Positions 4,266-56,254 of a stretch of DNA of 64,000 nucleotides are shown here, piece by piece. The position numbers were made by a program, and so were the translations under genes. The stretch is taken from NCBI GenBank assembly GCA_964016885.1, contig CAXHJY010001600.1, positions 62,001-126,000 on the forward strand, read 5' to 3'. The first letter of the stretch is position 1. Each line of letters opens with the position of its first letter. Source of the stretch: Eledone cirrhosa. Lineage: Eukaryota. The notes beneath the pieces were generated by a model, which saw only the letters and a program-made list of their open reading frames with translations, was not told the DNA's origin and ran no database searches.

Positions 4266-4479
4266 CATACATATATATATATATTTTATATACATATATA
4301 TACATATATATATATACATATTTTATATACATACATATATATATACATATATATATATTTTATATACGTATTTTATATACATATATATATACATATATAC
4401 ATAGTAATAATAATAAATTTGAAGACTAAAATCAAAAGGATAAATATATATGTATATAAAATATACATATATATTTATA

Positions 4480-5791
4480 CGAGGGGGGATCAAAAAGTTC
4501 ACGGAATTTTTCAGAAAATATTCTATTTTAAAAAAAATATGATTTACCATCAATTTATTTTTCTACATAGTTGCTATCCAGATCAATACACTTGACAAGG
4601 CAATGCTTCCAGCTTCGTGAGCCGTCTCTAAAGAAAGTTGAAGGCCTTGTTCGAAGCCATGTGTTGGCAGTGTTTTTAGCTTCTTCAACACCACTAAAAC
4701 AGGTTCCTTTTAGCATTTCTTTGAGTTTTGGAAAGAGGAAAAAGTCTGATGGGGCTAAATCTGGACTATAAGGCGGGTGAGGAAGGACTTCCCATCGAAA
4801 TTCTCGAAGAACTTCTTTTGCAACCCACGCAGAATGCGCTGGTGCATTGTCATGGTGAAACAAGATCCCACCATGAAGTTTCCCTTTTCGTTTCTTGACT
4901 AAAGCCTCTTTCAGCTTCCTTAAAACATTTGCATAGTAAGCTCCTGTCACAGTTCTTTGACCTTCAAGATAATCTATTAGTATCACCCCATCTGAATCCC
5001 AGAAAATGGTGGCCATCACTTTTTGATCCGATTTTTGAGATTTGAACAAAATTGGCCCCGATGATCCACATGGAAGCCACTGTTTTGACTGCTGTTTGGA
5101 TTCAGCATCATACTGGTAGATCCAGGTTTCATCTCCGGTGATGATTCTGGTCAGGAAATGCTCTTCATCAACTTCAATTTTGTTTAATATCGTCAAAGAC
5201 AGATCACTTCGAAGAATCAGCTGATCAGGGTGCAACGCTTTTGGGACCCATCGCGCTGAAAGCTTGCTTAGTCCCAAATTATCGTGCAGAATTGAATTTG
5301 CCGAACCATATGAAATGTCTAGGGACTTAGCTAACTGATTAACTGTTATTCTTCGATCTTCTTCAATTAAAGTCTGAGCAGCCTCAACGTTTTGGTCATT
5401 TTTTTATGTTCCTCGTCTTCCACTGTGATGGTCGTCTTCAAGGTCGTCTCTCCCTTGTTTGAATCGCTGAATCCACTTGTAGACAGCAGTTTTCTTTGGA
5501 GCAGTAGTACTGTAAACTTTAACTAAAACCTCCATAATCTGTGTCCCTTTCCATTTGAGTTTCACCAGAAAATTGATATTCGATCTTATCGCAAAATAAC
5601 TATTTTCCATTGTTCCAAAAATAGGTTTTTTAAAGAGTGTCAGTACTGTACAATAGTCCACGCATAACTGACTGCAAGTGACTAATAGCAAGGTAAACAC
5701 CCAGTGACAATGTTCTGACATGTTTAATATTGTTTTAATCTATTTTTTTCTTACTACGATAAAATTCCGCGAACTTTTTGATCCCCCCTCG
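4480..5791 (-). mobile_element. Full-length mariner (DD34D) DNA transposon, 1312 bp
   Basis: 31-bp TIRs CGAGGGGGGATCAAAAAGTTC(A/G)CGGAATTTT with one mismatch, TA on both sides, internal transposase. Confidence 0.97.
4555..5610 (-). pseudogene. Mariner transposase, 351 codons with one in-frame TAA at 5404-5406
   Basis: ORFs 5404-5721 and 4555-5277 share a frame; motifs WVPKAL, ITGDETW, HHDNA, YSPDLAPSD; 34 residues between the 2nd and 3rd Asp. Confidence 0.93.
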
Positions 5792-5804
5792 TATATATAT
5801 ATAT

Positions 5805-7616
5805 ATACAATGAAGCTCTTGCTCAGAGTGGATTTGTCTTATTACAATGAAGCTCTTGCTCGGAGTGGATTTGTCGATAAGGTAGCATATACAGAGTACG
5901 TAATTAGACCTAGAAGAAATAGATCCCGTCGCATTTGTTGGTATAACCCACCATATAATATGGAGGTGGCATTTGTTGGTATAACCCACCATATAATATG
6001 GAGGTGGCATTTTCCCCTTACACATAAATATAGTAAAATTTTTAATAGAAATACTATTAAAATTTCTTACTCTACGACTCCTAACCTTGCACATAACATC
6101 ACAGCTTCAAATTTAGCTAAACTACCTAGCCGCAGGAACACGTGCAACCCTGTAGTTAGTACTAACTGTAATTGTAGGAATCGGGTTGATTGCCCCCTAT
6201 CCGGGAAATGCCTCTCTAGTAACATTGTCTACAAATGTGAGGTTGAAACACCCACGTCCCGTAGGGCCTACATAGAGTTAACCGCAAATAGTTTCAAGCA
6301 GCGTCTTTACATGCATACCCATTCTTTTCGTTACCCTCTAAGAAGGAATATGACGTCACTCTCAGCTTATATCTGGAGTCTAAAAGACAACCACACCCAA
6401 TATAAGTTACACTGAGAGATCCTAGCCAGGGCTAGATTGTATAACGGAAATAAAAGACCATGTGACCTCTGCGCCACTGAGGCCCTGGAAATACTTTACG
6501 CCACCGACCACATCTTAAACAAAAAATCTGAGGCAATTTCGGCTTGTAAACATAAATTGCACAAAACTTTCCTGTATTACAGCCCCACGTTATACCCTAA
6601 CGGATAGTACGATCTATACGTGGATATTTTACGTCTTGATGTGGTAGCTAAGTATATGTTTTGTTTATACCATTACTTATTTGCATAGGTAAGTATATAT
6701 TACCTGTATGTTTTGTGAAGGTACGATTACCTTCTCGTACGTATATTTGATTGTATATGTTATGGCGTATAATTTTATATTTTCTGGTACATATGGTTTG
6801 GTTATGTGTATACGGGTGTTTTGCGTCTTTGTGAGTATGCAGGTTCGTACGTATGTAGGGTGTGTGTATATGTGTACTTCATGTTTCGGTTGACTTACGT
6901 CTCCGAACATTTGTGTATTTACATGTAGGTATGTGTGTGTGTTTGTTATATACGTATTTATTTATTTATATACGTTTATTTAATTATTTATTTATTTGTA
7001 TACACGCATACACACACACACATATTTATATGTGCGTGGTTTTGTATACCTATGGTTGTGGTTTCGCGTATGCTTGTGTATGTACATATTTGTATGCGTG
7101 TATGTATTTATTTAATTTCTATTACCTCTGTATTGTATTTATTTACTTTGTTCTTAACTCTGAATCGGATATTCATTCGGTCTCCTAGTTAGAATTATAG
7201 TCTACGACTTCTGCTATACCATTTACGTGGTTTTTTCTTTGCGTGCAATTGTTCTCCACGCTCCACATATGACGTATTATCTTCGTTTTTTTCGTTCATT
7301 GCCAGAGAACGTCTCTATGAACCACCTAAGAGAACATTAGTCTATGACCTCTTTTATACCATAAACGTGGTTCTGTCTTTGCGCGTAATTGTTTTTCACC
7401 GCTCCTATTAATGACGTATTATATTCGTTTTTTTCCCGTTCTTTACCAGGGAACGTTTCCACGAACCAAAGTATCGTCTTCCTGTCTTCCTCCGGTTGCA
7501 ACGTTTTTTGAAATATCCACTTCTGCGTTTGCAGATTGACTTTGTTAGTTTCAGAAGATCCCGTTAAGGGTGAAAGCAGCGATTCTTTGCTTAAACATTA
7601 ATCTATTATTTTAATA

Positions 7617-8205: not shown

Positions 8206-10001
8206 TCATCATCATCAACGTTTAACGTCCTTGTTCCACGCTTGCATGGGTTTGGACGGGGTTTTCCCACTTGAGGCAAGAGTGATTATCTTGCTCGCAT
8301 AGGACTATCTGGCAGGTTTTCTACAGCTGGATGCCCTTCGTAACACCAACCACATTTACAGTGTGGGGCTGGGAAGTTTTTACCGTGTTGCCTACACGAC
8401 CACATTACAGCGTGAACTGTGTGTTTTTTTGACGTGACACCTACACGATCTCATTTGTTTCGGCCTGGATGTTGTGGCACCAACATAACTTTACATTGAA
8501 AGAGGCGGTGTGGATGGGGTGGGGGTGGTGGGACAGTGGTGTATTTTGTTAGAGATGCCTACTGACTGTAGTAGGTTTTACTTTGTATTTAGGTAAGGCG
8601 GGTCTTCTCTATTACTGAGTACCGCCAAAGATCTCGGTCCAGTGACATTGTCTTGGTGAGGTGTAAGTGTGTGAGGTCGGAATTTATCAGCTCGTCCCAG
8701 GTTTTTCTGGGTCTGCCTATTCCGTGGCTACCGTCTATCTTTATTGCCCTGCACTTTGTTATACAGCTATCGTCCTTCATGCGCATCACGTGACCATACC
8801 AACGTAGCCTTCACTCGAGTAAACAACATCTGATCCCTCTTATTTCTAATTTTTCCTTAGTTCATTTATGCTTTGCCGTTCACGTATATTACTATTACAC
8901 ATCCAGCGGAGCATGCATGCTTCGTTTCTCTCTAGTCTGGGTATATACTCTGCACACAATGCCCAGGTCTCACTGCCATGTAACATTGCTGTTCGTATGC
9001 AGGCATCGTACAAACTGCCTTTCATTTTTAGGGAGAACCTTTTAGCGGCTGATAGTGGTATAAGCTCTCTGAACTTTTTCCATCCAGTTCTGACTCTAGC
9101 TACTGTACTTTCAGAGCACCCTCCCGCACTGCTGATTTTGTCACCCAGGTAACGGAAGCTGTCCACTATTTCTATAGAACCAACTGCGCAGTTGAAAGAG
9201 CAAGTATTTGTGGGCACTTGCTGCTACTTATTGCACCTGAGCACTGGCCACATGTAAAATCTATGTTCTTAGTTAGCTTACCTGTGATCCCACTACATCT
9301 TTTATGCACCCATACTTTGTATTTGGGACACAAAATGGAGTTTCTACCTACGCCTTTCCTACACACTGAGCATGGCCATTTCCCAGATGGAGCTGGTGCC
9401 CTATTTTCCTTCCTACAAACTAGAAGTTTAGTCTTAGACAAGTTAACTTTAGTCTTAGACAAGTTAACTTTAAGGCCTTTTGATTCTAGGCCATGCTTCC
9501 ATGTTTGGAATTTCTTCTCTAGTTTAGCCATTGATTCAGCTATGAGCGTTAGATCATCTGCATATAGGAGTTCCCATGGGCAGCCGGTCTTGAACTCCTC
9601 TGTTATAGCCTGAAGGGCAATAATAAATAGTAGGTGGCTGAGAACAGAGCCCTGATGGACGCCAACTTTTACGCTAAACTCTTCACTATATTCGTTGTTA
9701 ATTCTAACCTTGCTGACTGTTTCTTTATACATGGCTTGTATAGCTCTCACAAGCCATTCGTCAACACCTAGTTTTCTAAGAGCCCACCAGATAATGGAAT
9801 GGGGGACTCTGTTGAAGGCTTTCTCCAAGTCGACAAAAGCTAAGTATAGGGGTTTACTTTTAGCTAGGTACTTCTCCTGTAGTTGTCGTAAAATGAAAAG
9901 AGCATCTGTGGTACTTTTGCCTGACACAAAGCCGAACTGCATTTCATCTAGATCAATTCTCTCTCTGATTAGTTGCGCTATTACTTTTTCCGCGACCTTC
10001 A

Positions 10002-10002
<1 letters not shown>
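8206..10002 (-). mobile_element. RTE-clade LINE, 5'-truncated (subfamily 2), frameshifted
   Basis: [33 protein letters not shown] motifs; (CAT)n tail at 8206; inverted near-copy of 17782-19670. Confidence 0.95.
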
Positions 10003-10037
<35 letters not shown>

Positions 10038-17781: not shown

Positions 17782-19670
17782 CGTGATATTGTCGGGGAGA
17801 AGTGTGTCCTTAATGATGATGGTGTACTTGCCATCACTGACGCTGATAAGAAGGTAGCTTGGAAGTGTCACTACGAAAGGCTACTAAATGAGGAGAATAA
17901 TTGTTAGAAAGACAGTCTCCCCCACATCAATCCAATAGAGGGACAAGCAGTGCAAGTTGAAGGTAGTATAATAAGTAAGGCGATCAAAGACATGAAGACA
18001 GGCAAGGCGGCTGGGCCTTCGGAAATAGTTGCTGAAATGCTGAAAGCATCTGGAACGGTGGGACACATTATGGTCACCTGGATAGTAAACCAAGTCATAC
18101 AGAATGGGGTCGTTCCGAAGGACTGGCATAGCAGCATCATCATTAATTGCTACAAGGGTAAAGGAGATGCTCTAGATAGGGGAAACTATAGAGGCATTAA
18201 ATTAATTGACCAGGTCATGAAGGTCACAGAAAAAGTAATAGCGCAACTAATCAGAGAGAGAATTGACCTAGATGAAATGCAGTTCGGGTTTGTGTCAGGT
18301 AAAAGTACAACAGATGCTCTTTTCATTGTACGACAACTACAGGAGAAGTACCTAGATAAAAGTAAACCCCTATACTTAGCTTTTGTCGACTTGGAGAAAG
18401 CCTTTGACAGAGTACCCCGCTCGATTATCTGGTGGGCTCTTAGAAAACTAGGTGTTGATGAATGGCTTGTGAGAGCTATACAAGCCATAAACAGTCAGCA
18501 AGGTTAGAATTAACAACGAATATAGTGAAGAGTTTAGCGTAAAAGTTGGTGTTCATCAGGGCTCTGTCCTTAGCACCCTACTATTTATTATTGCCCTTCA
18601 GGCTATAACAGAGGAGTTCAAGACCGGCTGCCCATGGGAACTCCTATATGCAGATGATCTAACGCTCATAGCTGAATCAATGGCTGAACTAGAGAAGAAA
18701 TTCCAAACATGGAAGCATGGCCTAGAATCAAAAGGCCTTAAAATTAACCTGTCTAAGACTAAAGTTCTAGTTTGTAGGAAGGAAAATAGGGCACTGGTCC
18801 CATCTGGGAAATGGCCATGCTCAGTGTGTAGGAAAGGAGTAGGCAGAAACTCCATTTTATGTCCCAAATGCAAAGTATGGGTGCATAAAAGATGTAGTGG
18901 AATCACAGGTAAGCAAACTAAGAATATAGATTTTATATGTGGCCGGTGCTCAGGTGCAATTAGTAGCAGCAAGTGGCCACAGAATACTAACTCATTCCAT
19001 TGCACAGGTGGTTCTATAGAAATAGTGGACAGCTTCCGTTACCTGGGTGACAAAATCAGCAGTGGGGGAGGGTGCTCTGAAAGTACAGTAGCTAGAGTCA
19101 GAACGGGATGGAAAAAGTTCAGAGAGCTTATACCACTATTGGCCGCTAAAGGGTTCTCTCTAAAAATGAAAGGCAGGCTGTATGATGCCTGCATACGAAC
19201 AGCAATGTTACATGGCAGTGAGACCTGGGCATTATGTGCAGAGGATATACGCAGACTGAAGAGGAACGAAGCTTGCATGCTCCGCTGGATGTGTAATAGT
19301 AATATACGTGAACGGCAAAGCATAAACGAAGTAATGGAAAAATTAGAAATAAGTGGGAGCAGATGTTGTTTACTCGAGAGAAGACTACGTTGGTATGGTC
19401 ACGTGATGCGCATGAAAGACGACAGCTGTATAAAAAAGTGCAGGGCAATAAAAATAGACGGTAACCACGGAGTAGGCAAACCCAGAAAAACCTGGGACGA
19501 CTTGATAAATTCCGACCTCACACACTTACACCTCTCCAAGAGAATGTCACTGGACCGAGGTCTTTGGCGCTACACAGTAATACAGAAGACCCGCCTTGCC
19601 TAAGTACAAAGCGAAACCTACAGTCAGTAGGCACCTCTAACAAAAATACACCCCCGATGATGATGATGAT
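17782..19670 (+). mobile_element. RTE-clade LINE, 5'-truncated (subfamily 2)
   Basis: KAAGPS, YKGKGD, NYRGIKL, QFGF, DLEKAFD, YADD; 8-nt deletion near 18488 relative to the 8206-10002 copy shifts the frame; (GAT)n tail. Confidence 0.96.
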
Positions 19671-20671: not shown

Positions 20672-20810
20672 AGTTAATATGGAATATTTAGGTTAGTAAC
20701 AATTTAAAAAGTTATTTTTGTATGTTTTACTATGAATAAATGAAACATACAAAATAAAACTTATAAATAATTTTTGAAATTGTTACTAACCTAAATATTC
20801 TATATTAACT
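20672..20810. repeat. Imperfect ~46-bp inverted repeat (MITE-like)
   Basis: agttaatatggaatatttaggttagtaacaattt... / ...aaattgttactaacctaaatattctatattaact. Confidence 0.8.
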
Positions 20811-23956: not shown

Positions 23957-24711
23957 TGTTTTGATCCTGATGTTGGTTTTCTCCCAACACTACCACCACT
24001 GGTACCTTGACCTTGACCAGGCTGCTCCTCCTTGGGACTCTCAGCACCTCTGGAATTCCTTAGTGACTGATATTTTGGAGGAACTTGAGGCGGAGCAACT
24101 CCTAACAAAGTTTTACTGCGTTTTGGAGTAGATTGGTTTGACTGAGAGCGACCATTCGTTTCATCTCCAGAATCAGGGGTCATAGGACTCCCAAGCTTTC
24201 CAGGAGACGCAGCTCTTGGAGATATTGGGCGAAAAGTTGCCAGTCGAGGTTGACCTTGTGCTGAAACACTAGATGATAACCAAGCTGCTTTTGACTCAGC
24301 AGAGGATGTGATTGAAGATGCTGGTTGTACTTCTTCAAGGTTAGGCATTGGAAACATTTGTGAAGGATCTTCAATCCCAGGATCAACATCAACAGTCGTA
24401 TCTGTGGTTCCAAGAAATACTTTCTGAGCTTCATTTCCAAAAATTGGGTCACCGCTACTTCGAAATGCTGAAGGCTGTCCGCTCTCAGGCAAAGTACTGA
24501 TTTCATCCGCAAGCTGAACATTTCCTGTTGGACTGAAACTAGGAGTTTCAATTTGAGAAGGCTTAACTAAAACATTAACAAAAGCATCAGATGAATCAGT
24601 TGCTGTTCTACTTTTATACTGTTTTGTTCCATCCTTACTGTGGATTTCAGCAGCTGTCACCAGAATTCTACTCTCATCACTTGCTGCTGATTGAAATTCT
24701 TGAAAATCACT
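23957..24711 (-). CDS. Astrotactin-like gene, large Ser/Pro-rich cytoplasmic exon
   Basis: ttttctttgcag|AGT GAT...TCA AAA CA|gtaagt; 755 nt open, phase 0/2; the CA completes a His codon with the first T of the next exon. Confidence 0.88.
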
Positions 24712-24812: not shown

Positions 24813-25037
24813 TGACGGCTCGATGATTGATGTCCTTGAACTACTCTCAGAAAGGTCACATTGCTCCATGCCCTCATCTCCATTGCCTTTCCTCTCAGGC
24901 CAAGCCAAATCAACCCTAACAGGTAAAGTTGCATATTCACTTTTCATAAATTCAGTTTCTTCTTCATCTCTCTCTCCACCACTGTCATCAGACAAGTCTT
25001 TTGTGGCTTCAAAAGCACCAGATTTCTTCAATTCCTC
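24813..25037 (-). CDS. Astrotactin-like gene, cytoplasmic loop exon
   Basis: ttttcttattag|GAG GAA TTG...CCG TCA|gtaagt; 225 nt, phase 0/0, EELKKSGAFEATK...SRTSIIEPS; followed by a 101-nt intron. Confidence 0.85.
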
Positions 25038-36983: not shown

Positions 36984-38450
36984 ATTCTTGCATACATACA
37001 TGCAAATATGCATGTATACATACAAAAACACATCCACACACACACACATTCATAATGTCACCAAGGCCAAATAGTTAAAATAAATAAAATAATTAACCTT
37101 TTATGTGATCATAGAGTCAATCAAGTTGAATGCAATTTGATTGTTTATATTATTTAAAATCATTTCGAAATAAATATTGAATGAATAAAAAGGAAATAGT
37201 AAACCAATATAAAGAAGTCTTTAAAAGTCAGCAGTATAACATAATTAATGTACCATTTGAAATTTTTTATTAAAGCTTTTGAAATTTTTCCTTGATACCA
37301 AAAATGTTAAAATTAAAAGCAATCAAAATGTAAATAGATTTTAAACATTTCAGAGAAAATACTGTAAAATATAATATTTGCAACTGTCTCCAAATAGTTA
37401 ATACAAAAATAATTTTTAAATTAAAACGAAATTACAAGATAAAAATTATACATATATGAAATAGAAAATTTAGTATTATTTTTTTAAATTATCGTTTTCA
37501 AATTTGGAAAAGTAAAGCATTATGCATTAATCTCAGTAAAATAAGAGAAAGTGTACGAGTGTACATGTAACAGAGAGAGGCGTGTGTGTGTGTGTGGATG
37601 TCTATGCGCATGCATGGGGTTGTGTGTATGCGTGTGTGTGTGCCTTTGAGTGCCTGTTAAAGAGCTACATTTCCGCATGTGCACAGTTCAGTTGATCTGC
37701 TTTCATATTTCTAGCTTCTTTTTACAAGCTGCTCTTTTCGGGTATTAATATTAAGAAAACAATGATCGTTACTAACAGAAATTATAAAATATAATGAAGA
37801 GCTTATAAGTTAAACAGAATGTCTTTTTTATTTGTGGAAAAATCTAAAATTTCATTTCATTCAGAAGACCCTCTGAAATTTAATGATGAATATTTTATGA
37901 ACAAACATTATAGAATTTTATATTTATTTATTTATTCAAAGCCTATTATATTAATGACTTTAATAAATGTTCATGAAATCTTTGCTTATAGACATTTTTA
38001 GATATTTTTATATGCTGAATGCAAAACAATTTTTAATTATGTTTACTTATAATAAATATTGACACTCTTCTTCTATCATCAGAGTCACATATTCTAAAAT
38101 CTGTATTTAATCTTATTTTGCATTGAAGTTTAATTACATATAAACTTACAAAATTTAGATTACAATCACTTAATTCATTTTTAAATTATGGTAAGATATC
38201 TATTTGAAATCTGTATATAAGCCTATTTTTCTCTCCCAAATTTCTAGATAAATACATTTATATGGTGCAAAGAACTAAGATAGCCATACAAATTCATATA
38301 ATTAATACCTAAAATGTAACACAAATATATAAAACTAAGTTCTCAACTTAAATATTGTCACTGATCTCTTTATTTTCAAACATTTCGGAAAGCAGATGAA
38401 GAAGACCAAATATCTATTTCAATTCGAAAACTTCAGTAGCAATATCATAC

Positions 38451-38570
38451 CATTCTAAGAGTGTCTGCCTCCTCCTCGTCTGGCATTTCTGGAACACCTT
38501 TTAATGTATCTTCATTCTGGTAGTTGTCATCCTCTTCTTCTTCTGCCTGAAGTAGTAGCATGCCTCCACC
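38451..38570 (-). CDS. Duplicated acidic exon (candidate cassette or alternative exon)
   Basis: ggcctcacag|GGT GGA...AGA ATG|gtatga; 120 nt, phase 0/0, GGGMLLLQAEEEEDDNYQNEDTLKGVPEMPDEEEADTLRM, paralogous to 39097-39210. 5' boundary uncertain: the ORF extends to an ATG at 38627. Confidence 0.6.
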
Positions 38571-39096
38571 CTGTGAGGCCAAACACATGCTATTTATCGA
38601 TGATGCACTGTTGAGAGTATTTGGCATGTTTTTTTTTTGTTTTGTTTTGTTTCTTTTTTTCCAATACTCTCATTTTGTTTAGATTTCTTACATATATAAG
38701 AAGTACAAAGCAATCACTGCTTTGCAATTAAATAAATTTAAGAAAAGCATGAAATGTGCTCCACTGTTTATTCTTAAAATATAAACAAAAACAGGGTAAA
38801 CATGATGACTACCTCATCATGGCTTTAATCACCCTTACAATAACAAAATTATCTTAAGAAAGTAAAACAAATTTTAAAAGAAAATAAACTAATTTTTAAT
38901 TTAAATATTAACATGCAATAAAAAAGATTTTTAACAAAATTCAAATACCTTTAACCAAAGTTATTTTTAAAATAATATAAAGAAAAGACTCAAATAAATA
39001 AAAAAAACTGAAATAAATAACAAAATGCAAATGTCTTTCTTATGGAAACACTAACTATAAGCATCTTGTTTCTCAAAAAGATAAACAATTATTTAC

Positions 39097-39432
39097 CATT
39101 CTCAGAGCTTCGGCTTCTTCTTCCTCAGGCATCTCCGGAACACCTTTTAATGTATCTTCATTTTGATTGTTGTCAGCTTCTTCTTCGGCATGAAGAGGTA
39201 AGTCACCACCCTGTGATGCTAAATACATGCTGTTGCGCGATCTATACATCATGGGCTGTTGTGTCATATCATAGCATTCCATAGGTTGACCACTAACATC
39301 TAAAAACCCCTGGGACTTATTCCATGAATTGGCACAAATCAAAGCAAAGAAGAATGATATCATAGTAGAAATGCCAACTGTTAAGAAAACCCATTTTAGA
39401 CCAGGCACATGTCCATTCAGTGGTCTTTGATA
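39097..39432 (-). CDS. Astrotactin-like gene, TM1 exon plus start of cytoplasmic loop
   Basis: tttttttccag|TAT CAA...AGA ATG|gtaaat; 336 nt, phase 0/0; YQRPLNGHVPGLK-WVFLTVGISTMISFFFALICA (hydrophobic)-NSWNK...EEEEAEALRM. Confidence 0.85.
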
Positions 39433-41383
39433 CTGGAAAAAAAAGAAAGGAAAATATATTTTAAGTTACACAAATGAAAAAATTTTTGCCATATATACTC
39501 ATGTATAAGTCACACTAGCAGATAGGTCACATCGGTAGATAGGTCACATCGGTAGAGAAGTCACACTCCACATTACATACATTTAAAATGAACCATATAT
39601 TTAAACAGAGGTTTTGTAGACCTACTAGACAAGTTGCATGCTGATTTTTCATGTCATATTTTTATAGAAAAATGTGTGACATACACAGATATATATATAG
39701 TAATTTAAGTATTTTAAAAATAATATCATTTGTTTAATAAATAAATAAAGGATACTCTTCGGATATGTTTTTGATAATTCTACCTAAACTGCATCCCAAA
39801 ACCTATCATGTATAAAAGTACTTCAGCTATAATCTTTTTCAATGGATAAAAGTGCATCTCATGCTAGCAGACTGCTCACAGTTGCAGTCGTGACACATTC
39901 AAATATTTTGGATAAAAAAATGTTTGAAATCAGTCTGACTAATAGATAGTCTTTATTCACCACAATACTTTAATCCCCAATCTACGAATGTATATTATCC
40001 TTCCATCTCTTTTACTGCTACCACTGTCTTAGCTCTTCTGAACTAGTAAACTATGTACCATTATCCCTTAAACCTTCTTGTCTCATCCTCCCTTCTCTGA
40101 ATCTTTTTGCACTCCCAATCTCACTCTCAACATTTTACTCGATTCTTATTCTCGAAAACAACAGCTCTCTCGCATGTAACATTAAGAAGGAAACATTTTC
40201 TTTTAACAGCAACCACAATGTTCTCAACAGACATAGAGAGCCTATAATTATTTAGCAGTCTTTGTCTTCTTCAGACTAAATCATATGCATAAGCATGTAC
40301 ATATCCATACAGTCACACACTAACTCTCTCTTACTAACTCTCTCTTACTCACTCGCTATATATCTATCTATCTATCTCCCTCTCTCACACACACACAATT
40401 TAGAGCAGCATGTAAGTTAAGATATGCACCATAATTTTCTAAATAGAGTCGAGTATAAGTTTGACATCTCTGTTGATAAATGCAGAGCAAGTATGACATG
40501 AACAGAATGAGATGCATGTATATAGTTAAGTTTTATGTGAATATTGCATGTGTCTTGAAAGTTAAAAATCAATGAAGAGTAATATTATCTTCATAGGAGA
40601 GTGTACTGTTAGAAGTCACAGGAAACAGGTCATTAATGTGGAGAAAGAGAGAGTGGAGATATGTGAAGGAATAAATAAGATACGGAAATTGAAAAATTTT
40701 ATGTGCGATATAGTCAAAGACTTTACTTATAACAAGGTCAACATCATTGCTCTCACTAAAATTCTGAAGGCAATAAGAGACTACACCTGCATGTCTTAGG
40801 AAAGCAGAACAGAATGTGGTTGAACATAAACCATGATGATGGCTACTGAGAATAGAAAGGTACAAAATGTGATAAATGATTTGATTGTTTATAGCTGTCA
40901 CCATCACTTTTCTGATCATGGAAATACAGATGATAGATTGAGAGTTAACAATCTAGGAGTTGGGCATTTCCATGAATGAAACAAACAGCTGTATACTTTC
41001 AGAGGATGAAGTAAAAGTCACAACACACAATCTCATCACAAATACTGTCAGAAAATTTCTGTGAATTGAACTAACAATATTCAGTCTTTCAAAATTTGTG
41101 TTAAGTCTCCCAAATAAATCTCTCAGTTTCCAAAATCATCTGTTGCTTGGCTGATTGAAGAAATATTGAGAATATTTTGTATAGATGACACAAAAGAAAT
41201 ACAATAATAGGTTCAAATAGATCACTATACAGACAGTAGTAAAGGTGGAATATGCAATGATAGGAAATTATTCAGGAGTGCACAGTTTAAACAATGAAAA
41301 AACGAACATGATCAATACCCTTCCTCAGTAAAAGTAACAGAAAAAGTGTGTGTTTGGGACGTGTATATGTGTCTTTATAACTA

Positions 41384-47181: not shown

Positions 47182-47310
47182 CAACTGAAGCAAAAGTCCC
47201 TCTTTATATTCAACCAACTCAATATGGACAGAATAGGCATCTTCTACTGTAGGAGCAGTGATGTTGATGAGAACTTCAAATTCGTTGCCTTCCTGAAAAT
47301 GCACTGCTCC
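47182..47310 (-). CDS. Astrotactin-like gene, most 5' exon found (N-terminal extracellular segment)
   Basis: tttcttctttttgtttcag|GGA...CAG TTG|gtaagg; 129 nt, phase 0/0, GAVHFQEGNEFEVLINITAPTVEDAYSVHIELVEYKEGLLLQL; joins 39432 in frame. Confidence 0.75.
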
Positions 47311-55888: not shown

Positions 55889-55964
55889 CAGGTTCAATTG
55901 GGGGTAACCACAGTAAGTAAGGTACTCAATACATAGTATAGTATATACAATTTTTAATATAGAA

Positions 55965-56014
55965 ATGGTTTCTACAGGACTAGAACTGTTTCCTTTGGAG
56001 AAATCATCAGGAAT
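55965..56014 (-). ncRNA. Minimal type I hammerhead-like ribozyme inside a ~40-bp inverted repeat
   Basis: Minus strand: ttc-CTGATGA-ttt/aaag-GAAA-cag...ctg-TA-gaa; intact core, GUA cleavage triplet. Confidence 0.65.
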
Positions 56015-56136
56015 GGAACAGTTCTAGTGTTGTAGAAGCCATTTCTATATTAAACATTATATATATATATATATGTAGAGAGACAGAGAGAGAGAGCAAG
56101 AGTGGCAGGGAGGCGGAAGAAGGAGAAGAAGAATAT

Positions 56137-56242
56137 ACATTTATTACGGGGTAGGTGGTGAGCCTTCTTATTCTGGAGTTTCCTTTGAGTAATCAGGTGA
56201 AACTCCAGAGTAACAAGACTCACCACTGAGCCATAATAAATG
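56137..56242. repeat. Long imperfect hairpin with a decayed hammerhead-like core
   Basis: catttatta..gtggtgagccttcttattctggagtttc / gaaactccagagtaacaagactcaccac..taataaatg; minus strand reads CTGATTA-ctcaaag-GAAA. Confidence 0.7.
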
Positions 56243-56254
56243 AATCTCTCTCTG

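What the first reader, a model, noticed from the sequence alone, without database searches (positions are those of the whole stretch)
38451..39240. Tandem partial exon duplication retaining donor site and reading frame
Seen: the end of the TM1 exon (NSMYLASQGG-DLPLHAEEE-ADNNQNEDTLKGVPEMPEEEEAEALRM|gt) recurs ~650 bp downstream (NSMCLASQGGGMLLLQAEEEEDDNYQNEDTLKGVPEMPDEEEADTLRM|gt) with frame-preserving indels and many synonymous changes (AAC/AAT, TTA/TTG, GCA/GCC, CCG/CCA, GAG/GAA) while flanking introns look unrelated, suggesting purifying selection. Possible uses (inference): a 120-nt cassette via tcacag|GGT at 38570; mutually exclusive choice after an internal donor GAT|gttagt at 39298; an alternative first exon from aaacATG at 38627 giving a TM1-less isoform; or a poison exon via aacag| at 38607, which reads TGC ATC ATC GAT AAA TAG.
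Basis: partly seen in the sequence, partly recalled or inferred. Interest (0 to 1): 0.7.

Follow-up and report, generated by a model that had tools for sequence, protein, structure and literature searches.

The report
Copied exon end doubles conserved motif
An octopus membrane-protein gene carries an old second copy of one exon's end, which related octopuses splice in as an optional 40-residue piece, likely giving the protein a second docking site for a partner inside the cell; this is a clean example of a known kind of gene evolution.

Summary
The 3' end of a 336-nt coding exon (39432-39097, minus strand) recurs 646 nt downstream. Over 38 aligned codons there are 14 synonymous and 8 replacement changes (dN/dS 0.075), and the flanks are unrelated. 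Transcript contigs join 39097 to 38570 in 4 of 8 runs laid, all from related species; one goes on through donor 38451 into the next exon. RefSeq already annotates the exon in Octopus sinensis (isoforms X1-X5 include it, X6 skips it). Both copies occur together, so the splicing is not mutually exclusive. The acceptor is a coding CAG|G of the parent exon put to new use. The copied 38 residues are the best-conserved part of a 405-residue predicted cytoplasmic loop in an uncharacterised mollusc EGF/TNFR-repeat membrane protein, so inclusion likely doubles a short binding motif. A TRAF2/3-type PxEE site is a lead only. Some transcripts read through the copy's donor into a stop, either an unfinished splicing step or a shortened isoform. 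The one transcript run labelled with the window's species shows only skipping. Verdict: a real, selected exon and a new member of a known kind.

The parts
47182..47310 (-). Upstream coding exon (exon 2) of the host gene, short predicted outside domain
   Evidence: tblastn with P0012; boundaries read; loose ends at 39433
39097..39432 (-). Parent exon (exon 3), 336 nt, phase 0-0, first hydrophobic segment plus conserved juxtamembrane motif; its last 114 nt are the template of the cassette
38571..39096 (-). 526-nt GT..AG intron between parent donor and the copy's acceptor
   Evidence: joint 'skips 526, CT..AC' in runs X1, X5, X6, X9
38571..38600 (-). 5' remnant of the duplicate, now intron end and acceptor region; still shows a coding-like pattern against the parent
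   Evidence: 3 synonymous and 1 replacement difference in 8 codons; 0 differences in 34 nt against one relative
38451..38570 (-). The copy: 120-nt, phase 0-0 optional exon encoding 40 residues
   Evidence: contig of run X6 = 30 nt parent + 120 nt copy + 18 nt next exon; O. sinensis X1 versus X6 differ by exactly these 40 residues
38445..38450 (-). Copy's donor; if read through it gives Val then a stop (GTA TGA)
   Evidence: contig of run X1 is spliced at 38570 and runs through it; P0049 and P0025 end in ...LRMV
38369..38374 (-). AATAAA 76 nt behind the donor; possible polyadenylation signal, weak evidence
   Evidence: about 1 per kb in this intron by chance
24813..25037 (-). Next constitutive exon (exon 4), joined to either donor
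   Evidence: loose ends
23957..24711 (-). Exon 5, rest of the poorly conserved predicted cytoplasmic loop

Best explanation
The copy is an optional in-frame exon, made by a tandem duplication of the parent exon's 3' end, that related octopuses splice in behind the parent and that likely gives the protein a second copy of a conserved binding motif inside the cell. Shown: the duplicate kept the parent's donor; its acceptor is the parent's coding TCA CAG|GGT; inclusion adds 40 residues after the parent segment; skipping also occurs; the peptide is under purifying selection; and the copied segment is the best-conserved part of the loop. Inferred: the window's own species still uses the exon; weak splice sites make it the minor, regulated form; the loop is cytoplasmic; and the motif is a linear docking site whose doubling raises the hold on an adaptor. 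The best lead for the partner is a TRAF2/3-type adaptor binding P-x-E-E, which I put at about 25%.
For: Joint 39097 to 38570 in 4 of 8 runs laid (X1, X5, X6, X9; four studies, organisms A and C). The X6 contig carries parent, copy and 18 nt of exon 4. The skip junction appears in 5 of 8 runs (X24, X1, X3, X4, X5). O. sinensis RefSeq: 5 of 6 isoforms include it, 1 skips, and X1 versus X6 differ by exactly the 40 residues. O. bimaculoides LOC106879375 has the identical 40 residues. dN/dS 0.075. Against organism A the cassette differs at 6 of 120 nt and the intron at 17 of 101 (p 0.007); the 34 nt before the acceptor differ at 0 (p 0.007). The last 24 residues show no replacement in the listed differences. 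The acceptor has 11 of 21 pyrimidines against 16-19 for three constitutive exons. The parent segment averages 0.53 identity to four non-cephalopod molluscs against 0.20 for the rest of the loop. Px(Q/E)E stands at this place in 10 of 12 aligned rows, and the genome has a TRAF2-like domain.
Against: No inclusion is seen in the one transcript run labelled with the window's species (X24); its contig joins the parent straight to exon 4. Use of donor 38451 rests on 1 of 8 runs plus annotation, and RefSeq models may draw on the same public reads. The copy is less constrained than the parent: 3 replacement and 3 synonymous differences against organisms A and C, while the parent segment is identical in 4 of 4 cephalopod proteins checked. 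Three O. vulgaris models and the Argonauta model skip it. No protein-level or tissue evidence exists. Px(Q/E)E is cheap in acidic loops (0.3-0.6 hits per shuffled loop) and is absent in the chiton protein. The coding-like pattern upstream of the used acceptor is not explained by the present cassette alone.
Confidence: 0.75

Rival explanations
1. The copy works mainly, or also, as an alternative last exon. After splicing at 38570 the donor is read through to a stop, and the RNA is polyadenylated in the intron. This gives a short single-pass protein of about 260 residues that ends with two motifs and lacks the EGF/TNFR part.
For: The X1 contig is spliced at 38570, crosses the donor and ends about 25 nt behind AATAAA at 38374. 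X9 has the joint and an adjoining contig through the donor. The O. bimaculoides model ends in MV, as does an unnamed open frame. The 83 nt behind the donor differ at 6 places against 17 of 101 in the intron (p 0.07).
Against: The contigs of X2 and X9 run on for more than 400 nt past the AATAAA. A 526-nt intron removed before a 13.4-kb intron is what an unfinished precursor would look like. AATAAA occurs about once per kb here by chance, and its conservation could not be read from the tables. The O. bimaculoides gene is split over three loci, the next on a 16-kb contig, so its end may be an assembly artefact.
Confidence: 0.2
2. The copy was a selected exon in the past and is now a decaying, leakily spliced relic, at least in the window's species.
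For: Two replacements appear specific to the window's lineage (relatives keep the parent's residue at cassette positions 8 and 14). X24 shows only skipping. The splice sites are weak.
Against: Frame, acceptor and donor are intact. Cassette and acceptor flank are more conserved than the intron since the species split. The peptide is identical in O. sinensis and O. bimaculoides.
Confidence: 0.1
3. The copy serves as an alternative first exon (ATG at 38627 or 38588, protein without signal peptide and first membrane segment), as a mutually exclusive 3' half after donor 39298, or as a poison exon via 38607.
For: All sites exist, and 39298 to 38570 would be in frame. The 8 codons upstream of the used acceptor look coding-constrained, which a start at 38588 would partly explain.
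Against: No joint at 39298 or 38607 in 8 of 8 runs. No contig enters the copy unspliced and leaves it spliced: X2, X3 and X4 cross both ends unspliced. Parent and copy are included together.
Confidence: 0.07

Closest known systems
Imprecise intron gain by internal tandem duplication with use of a latent splice site (described in PMC3443670, passages read, citing Gao and Lynch 2009, which was not held)
   Same: An internal duplication, with a latent AG|G inside the duplicated coding sequence used as a splice site, adds coding sequence and a new intron.
   Different: The donor is inherited from the parent exon rather than latent, and the new exon is optional.
Precise intron gain by duplication of an AGGT-bearing exon segment (Hellsten et al. 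2011, as described in PMC3443670)
   Same: The acceptor is an AGGT protosplice site from coding sequence (CAG|GGT).
   Different: The coding sequence is not left unchanged; 40 residues are added.
Tandem duplicated exon substitutions and mutually exclusive exons (PMC8373072, PMC9741552, passages read; PMC9013439, parts 1-2 of 4 read)
   Same: Adjacent homologous exons in one gene, old and under purifying selection, alternatively spliced.
   Different: Only part of the exon is copied, and the copy is added to the parent rather than swapped for it: an insertion, not a substitution.
TRAF1/2/3/5-binding motif Px(Q/E)E of TNF-receptor tails (PMC6125299, passages read)
   Same: Both copies carry P-x-E-E followed by an acidic residue in a predicted cytoplasmic region; the protein family has TNFR-type cysteine repeats.
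   Different: The host is a predicted multi-pass protein with seven hydrophobic segments, not a TNF receptor; the match is a short pattern only.

Membership tests
Tandem (partial) exon duplication | Homologous exon sequence next to the parent, same gene and strand, of genomic origin | tested here: met
   the copy keeps the donor GT and has no 3' poly(A) tail
Tandem (partial) exon duplication | The copy is spliced into transcripts | tested here: met
   4 of 8 runs at the acceptor, 1 of 8 at the donor, all in relatives; annotated in two Octopus species
Tandem (partial) exon duplication | Spliced in the window's own species | tested here: inconclusive
   X24 shows skipping and has no cover of the copy; contigs cannot show absence
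Mutually exclusive duplicated exons (substitution events) | Only one of the two homologous segments per transcript | tested here: not met
   X6 contig and O. sinensis X1-X5 carry both
Imprecise intron gain by internal duplication | A latent splice site within the duplicated coding sequence is used | tested here: met
   acceptor at 38570 aligns with the parent's coding TCA CAG|GGT at 39210
Imprecise intron gain by internal duplication | Coding sequence is lengthened; outgroups have a single copy | tested here: met
   +40 residues; single motif in the Haliotis, Batillaria, Patella and Liolophura proteins, judged from protein models only
Precise AGGT intron gain | Coding sequence unchanged by the new intron | tested here: not met
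Regulated cassette exon | Frame-preserving, symmetric phase, with both inclusion and skipping | tested here: met
   120 nt, phase 0-0; both forms in X1 and X5
Regulated cassette exon | Weak splice sites and conserved intron flanks | tested here: met
   the downstream flank is only borderline (p 0.07)
Regulated cassette exon | Inclusion level differs by tissue or stage | not testable with these tools
   only contigs of coded runs were available
TRAF2/3 docking site | Px(Q/E)E pattern at a conserved place | tested here: met
   10 of 12 rows; 0.3-0.6 chance hits per loop
TRAF2/3 docking site | Lies in the cytoplasm | tested here: inconclusive
   between hydrophobic segments 122-140 and 547-565; topology inferred from hydropathy
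TRAF2/3 docking site | Physical binding to a TRAF domain | not testable with these tools
   needs a pull-down or calorimetry

The most novel reading that the evidence does not exclude
The copy is a three-way splice switch on an unstudied mollusc receptor: skip (one TRAF-type docking site), include (two sites, stronger hold on a trimeric adaptor), or include and terminate (a short membrane-anchored decoy ending in two sites, uncoupled from the EGF/TNFR outside domain). One partial exon duplication would have created both an avidity control and a dominant-negative isoform in octopuses.
Probability: 0.08. Interest if true: 0.6.

Novelty: new member of a known kind. Interest (0 to 1): 0.3.

Why it matters
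It is a tidy, traceable case of a new exon being born: the acceptor can still be read as coding sequence in the parent 646 nt away, and selection has kept the copy for several times the age of the split between octopus species. The duplication also points at the one conserved motif in the loop of an uncharacterised mollusc receptor-like protein, which makes that motif the obvious place to start functional work. It does not change any general view: internal duplications that use latent splice sites are described, and the exon is already in RefSeq.

Tried and rejected
Retroposed copy: rejected, because the copy keeps the donor and the A-rich tract lies 5' of it. Dispersed paralogue: only 2 matches in the genome. 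Gene conversion as the cause of similarity: a 26-nt identical run exists (8 identical codons in a row, permutation p 0.018), but all 14 synonymous differences lie outside it, so conversion cannot explain the low dN/dS. The idea that conservation ends sharply at the AATAAA was dropped, because the relatives' loose ends still resemble the window beyond 38367. An older, longer exon starting at the CAG at 38607 and broken by an 8-nt deletion is suggested by the alignment, but that flank similarity is not significant (p 0.10). No RNA holder was listed as such on record; the runs were taken as RNA because their contigs join at GT..AG. Lack of cover of the copy in X24 is no evidence. Contig depths were lower for inclusion than for the parent in all four runs with the joint, but they are not a measure of expression. 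Complex prediction of the cassette with a TRAF2-like domain gave no answer. Structure prediction of the host's C-terminal half was of low confidence (mean pLDDT 43.7), and its fold matches are meaningless (TM-score at most 0.09). A recalled likeness of the five C-terminal membrane segments to prominin or tweety could not be tested. ESM Atlas gave no hit, PDB sequence search nothing, and Pfam only EGF and TNFR repeats. Whether P0022 and P0028 are a parent/copy pair in another animal could not be decided (unnamed). Two look-ups of earlier scan findings were empty. A paper search for LOC115209612 found 0 papers. Octopus + exon duplication + alternative splicing found 2: in one the octopus passage concerns ATE1, the other was seen as a listing only. 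No supplements were read; a mention of this gene in supplementary tables would have been missed.

Full report
Observation. On the minus strand the exon 39432-39097 ends in NSMYLASQGG...EAEALRM|gt, and a similar stretch ends at 38451 in ...EADTLRM|gt. Self-BLAST gives 78.9% over 147 nt, E 8.7e-27, and the own genome holds only these 2 matches. Over 38 aligned codons, 92 of 114 bases and 30 of 38 residues agree, and 16 of 22 differences are at third positions. Nei-Gojobori gives 14 of 23 synonymous and 8 of 91 replacement sites changed, dN/dS 0.075. Because the parent is constrained, a neutral copy would give about half of dS at replacement sites, about 39 changes; 8 are seen (p 1e-12; p 1e-4 at dS 0.6). 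The 150-nt flanks are no more alike than shuffles.

Host gene. The parent exon matched one protein, a model labelled Argonauta hians, and through it a cluster of 17 proteins, of which 15 were listed: O. sinensis LOC115209612, O. vulgaris and O. bimaculoides models. Homologues are named from Haliotis, Batillaria, Patella, Candidula and Liolophura. The protein is about 2000 residues, uncharacterised, with EGF and TNFR-type repeats and seven hydrophobic segments. Exons map from just beyond the window's right end (about 66049 in window numbering) through 47310, 39432, 25037, 24711, 15016, 12912, 12553 and 2857 and on past the left end; residues after 820 were not found on this contig. The duplicated piece lies about 40 residues behind the first hydrophobic segment, in a 405-residue loop inferred to be cytoplasmic. 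Against four non-cephalopod molluscs the parent segment (182-219) averages 0.53 identity and the rest of the loop 0.20; the best 38-residue window of the loop starts at 183-184.

Is it spliced? Of 24 runs listed I laid 8, all contigs. A 526-nt GT..AG joint from 39097 to 38570 appears in X1, X5, X6 and X9 (four studies, organisms A and C). The X6 contig holds 30 nt of parent, the 120-nt copy and 18 nt identical to the start of exon 4 as seen at the skip junctions, so donor 38451 is used; X5 stops 2 letters past the donor and does not decide. The skip junction shows in X24, X1, X3, X4 and X5. X24 carries the same organism label as the DNA runs that hold the whole stretch; it shows skipping only and has no cover of the copy, which proves nothing. 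No joint at 39298 or 38607 appears in any of the 8. X2, X3 and X4 cross both ends of the copy unspliced. Annotation agrees: O. sinensis X1-X5 include the 40 residues and X6 lacks exactly them; O. bimaculoides LOC106879375 has the identical 40 residues, 37 of 40 shared with the window. Three O. vulgaris models and the Argonauta model skip it. These models are predictions and may rest on the same public reads.

Present constraint. Against organism A the cassette differs at 6 of 120 nt (3 synonymous, 3 replacement), the intron 38664-38764 at 17 of 101 (p 0.007) and the 34 nt before the acceptor at 0 (p 0.007); 3 of that contig's 28 differences were not listed and were left out. All listed replacements fall in the first 16 residues. 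The parent segment is identical in 4 of 4 cephalopod proteins checked, so the copy is constrained but less than the parent. Synonymous distance is 0.23 between the window and organism A in the parent exon, and 1.25 (lower 95% bound 0.54) between parent and copy: the duplication is at least twice, and probably about five times, as old as that species split.

How it arose and works. Shown: the donor is inherited, and the acceptor is the parent's coding TCA CAG|GGT. The parent has a second AG 9 nt upstream (TTAGCA), which the copy has lost by two changes that are synonymous in the old frame. The acceptor is weak, with 11 of 21 pyrimidines against 16-19 for constitutive exons. Inferred: this makes the copy optional, so that the loop carries one or two acidic motifs. 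Short conserved islands in otherwise divergent loops are typically linear binding sites (own knowledge). Both copies carry P-x-E-E plus an acidic residue, the TRAF2/3 consensus given in PMC6125299 (passages). It stands in 10 of 12 aligned rows, twice as PEQE, and the genome has a TRAF2-like domain. But the pattern arises 0.3-0.6 times per shuffled loop and is missing in the chiton, so it is a lead of about 25%.

Loose ends. (1) Read-through: the X1 contig is spliced at 38570, crosses the donor into Val-stop and ends about 25 nt behind an AATAAA; X9 has the joint and an adjoining read-through contig; X2 and X9 go on for more than 400 nt. An unfinished precursor is the simpler reading, and a short terminal isoform is not excluded. 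(2) The 8 codons before the used acceptor show 3 synonymous and 1 replacement change (p 0.0003-0.03 under the neutral-copy null). Either the exon was once longer or the acceptor region holds these bases; the choice of the block's edge by alignment inflates this.

Comparison. It fits imprecise intron gain by internal duplication with a latent splice site, as set out in PMC3443670 (passages; the primary paper was not held). It is not a mutually exclusive substitution of the kind catalogued in PMC8373072 and PMC9741552 (passages). Tandem exon duplications are common in animals (PMC9013439, parts 1-2 of 4). No paper in the library names the gene.

Verdict. A real, selected, alternatively spliced partial exon duplicate, already annotated in two relatives and functionally unstudied. 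New member of a known kind; interest 0.3.

Noticed in passing
window 39162-39137 and 38516-38491 (minus): A 26-nt run is identical in parent and copy amid otherwise high synonymous divergence (permutation p 0.018), and no difference in it was listed for relatives; a shared splicing enhancer or a conversion tract.
   Followed up: partly
host gene, window 47310 to 2768 (minus) and beyond both ends: Uncharacterised mollusc protein of about 2000 residues with a first hydrophobic segment, a long loop, a second segment, an EGF/TNFR region and five more segments; no family found beyond the repeats.
   Followed up: partly
window 39240-39226 (minus): The motif RSRNS just upstream of the copied piece is nearly invariant across molluscs but is not part of the cassette; a possible phosphorylation site (recalled pattern, untested).
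   Followed up: no
P0022 and P0028 (unnamed proteins): Two related exon-sized peptides share EDHDN, and P0028 has MPDEE like the copy; they could be a parent/copy pair in another animal.
   Followed up: partly
window 4558-5403 (minus): A 282-codon open frame matching Transposase_1 (mariner type) inside a host intron, with short inverted repeats at 4464-4510 and 5761-5807.
   Followed up: partly
window 17908-19652 (plus) and 8538-10004 (minus): Two 92%-identical retroelement fragments with reverse-transcriptase and PHD matches.
   Followed up: partly
window 20672-20810, 55930-56077, 56135-56245: Imperfect palindromes of 110-150 nt in self-BLAST.
   Followed up: no
O. sinensis isoforms X1-X5: Lengths of 2043, 2036, 2028, 2020 and 2018 residues show further alternative splicing elsewhere in the gene.
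   Followed up: no
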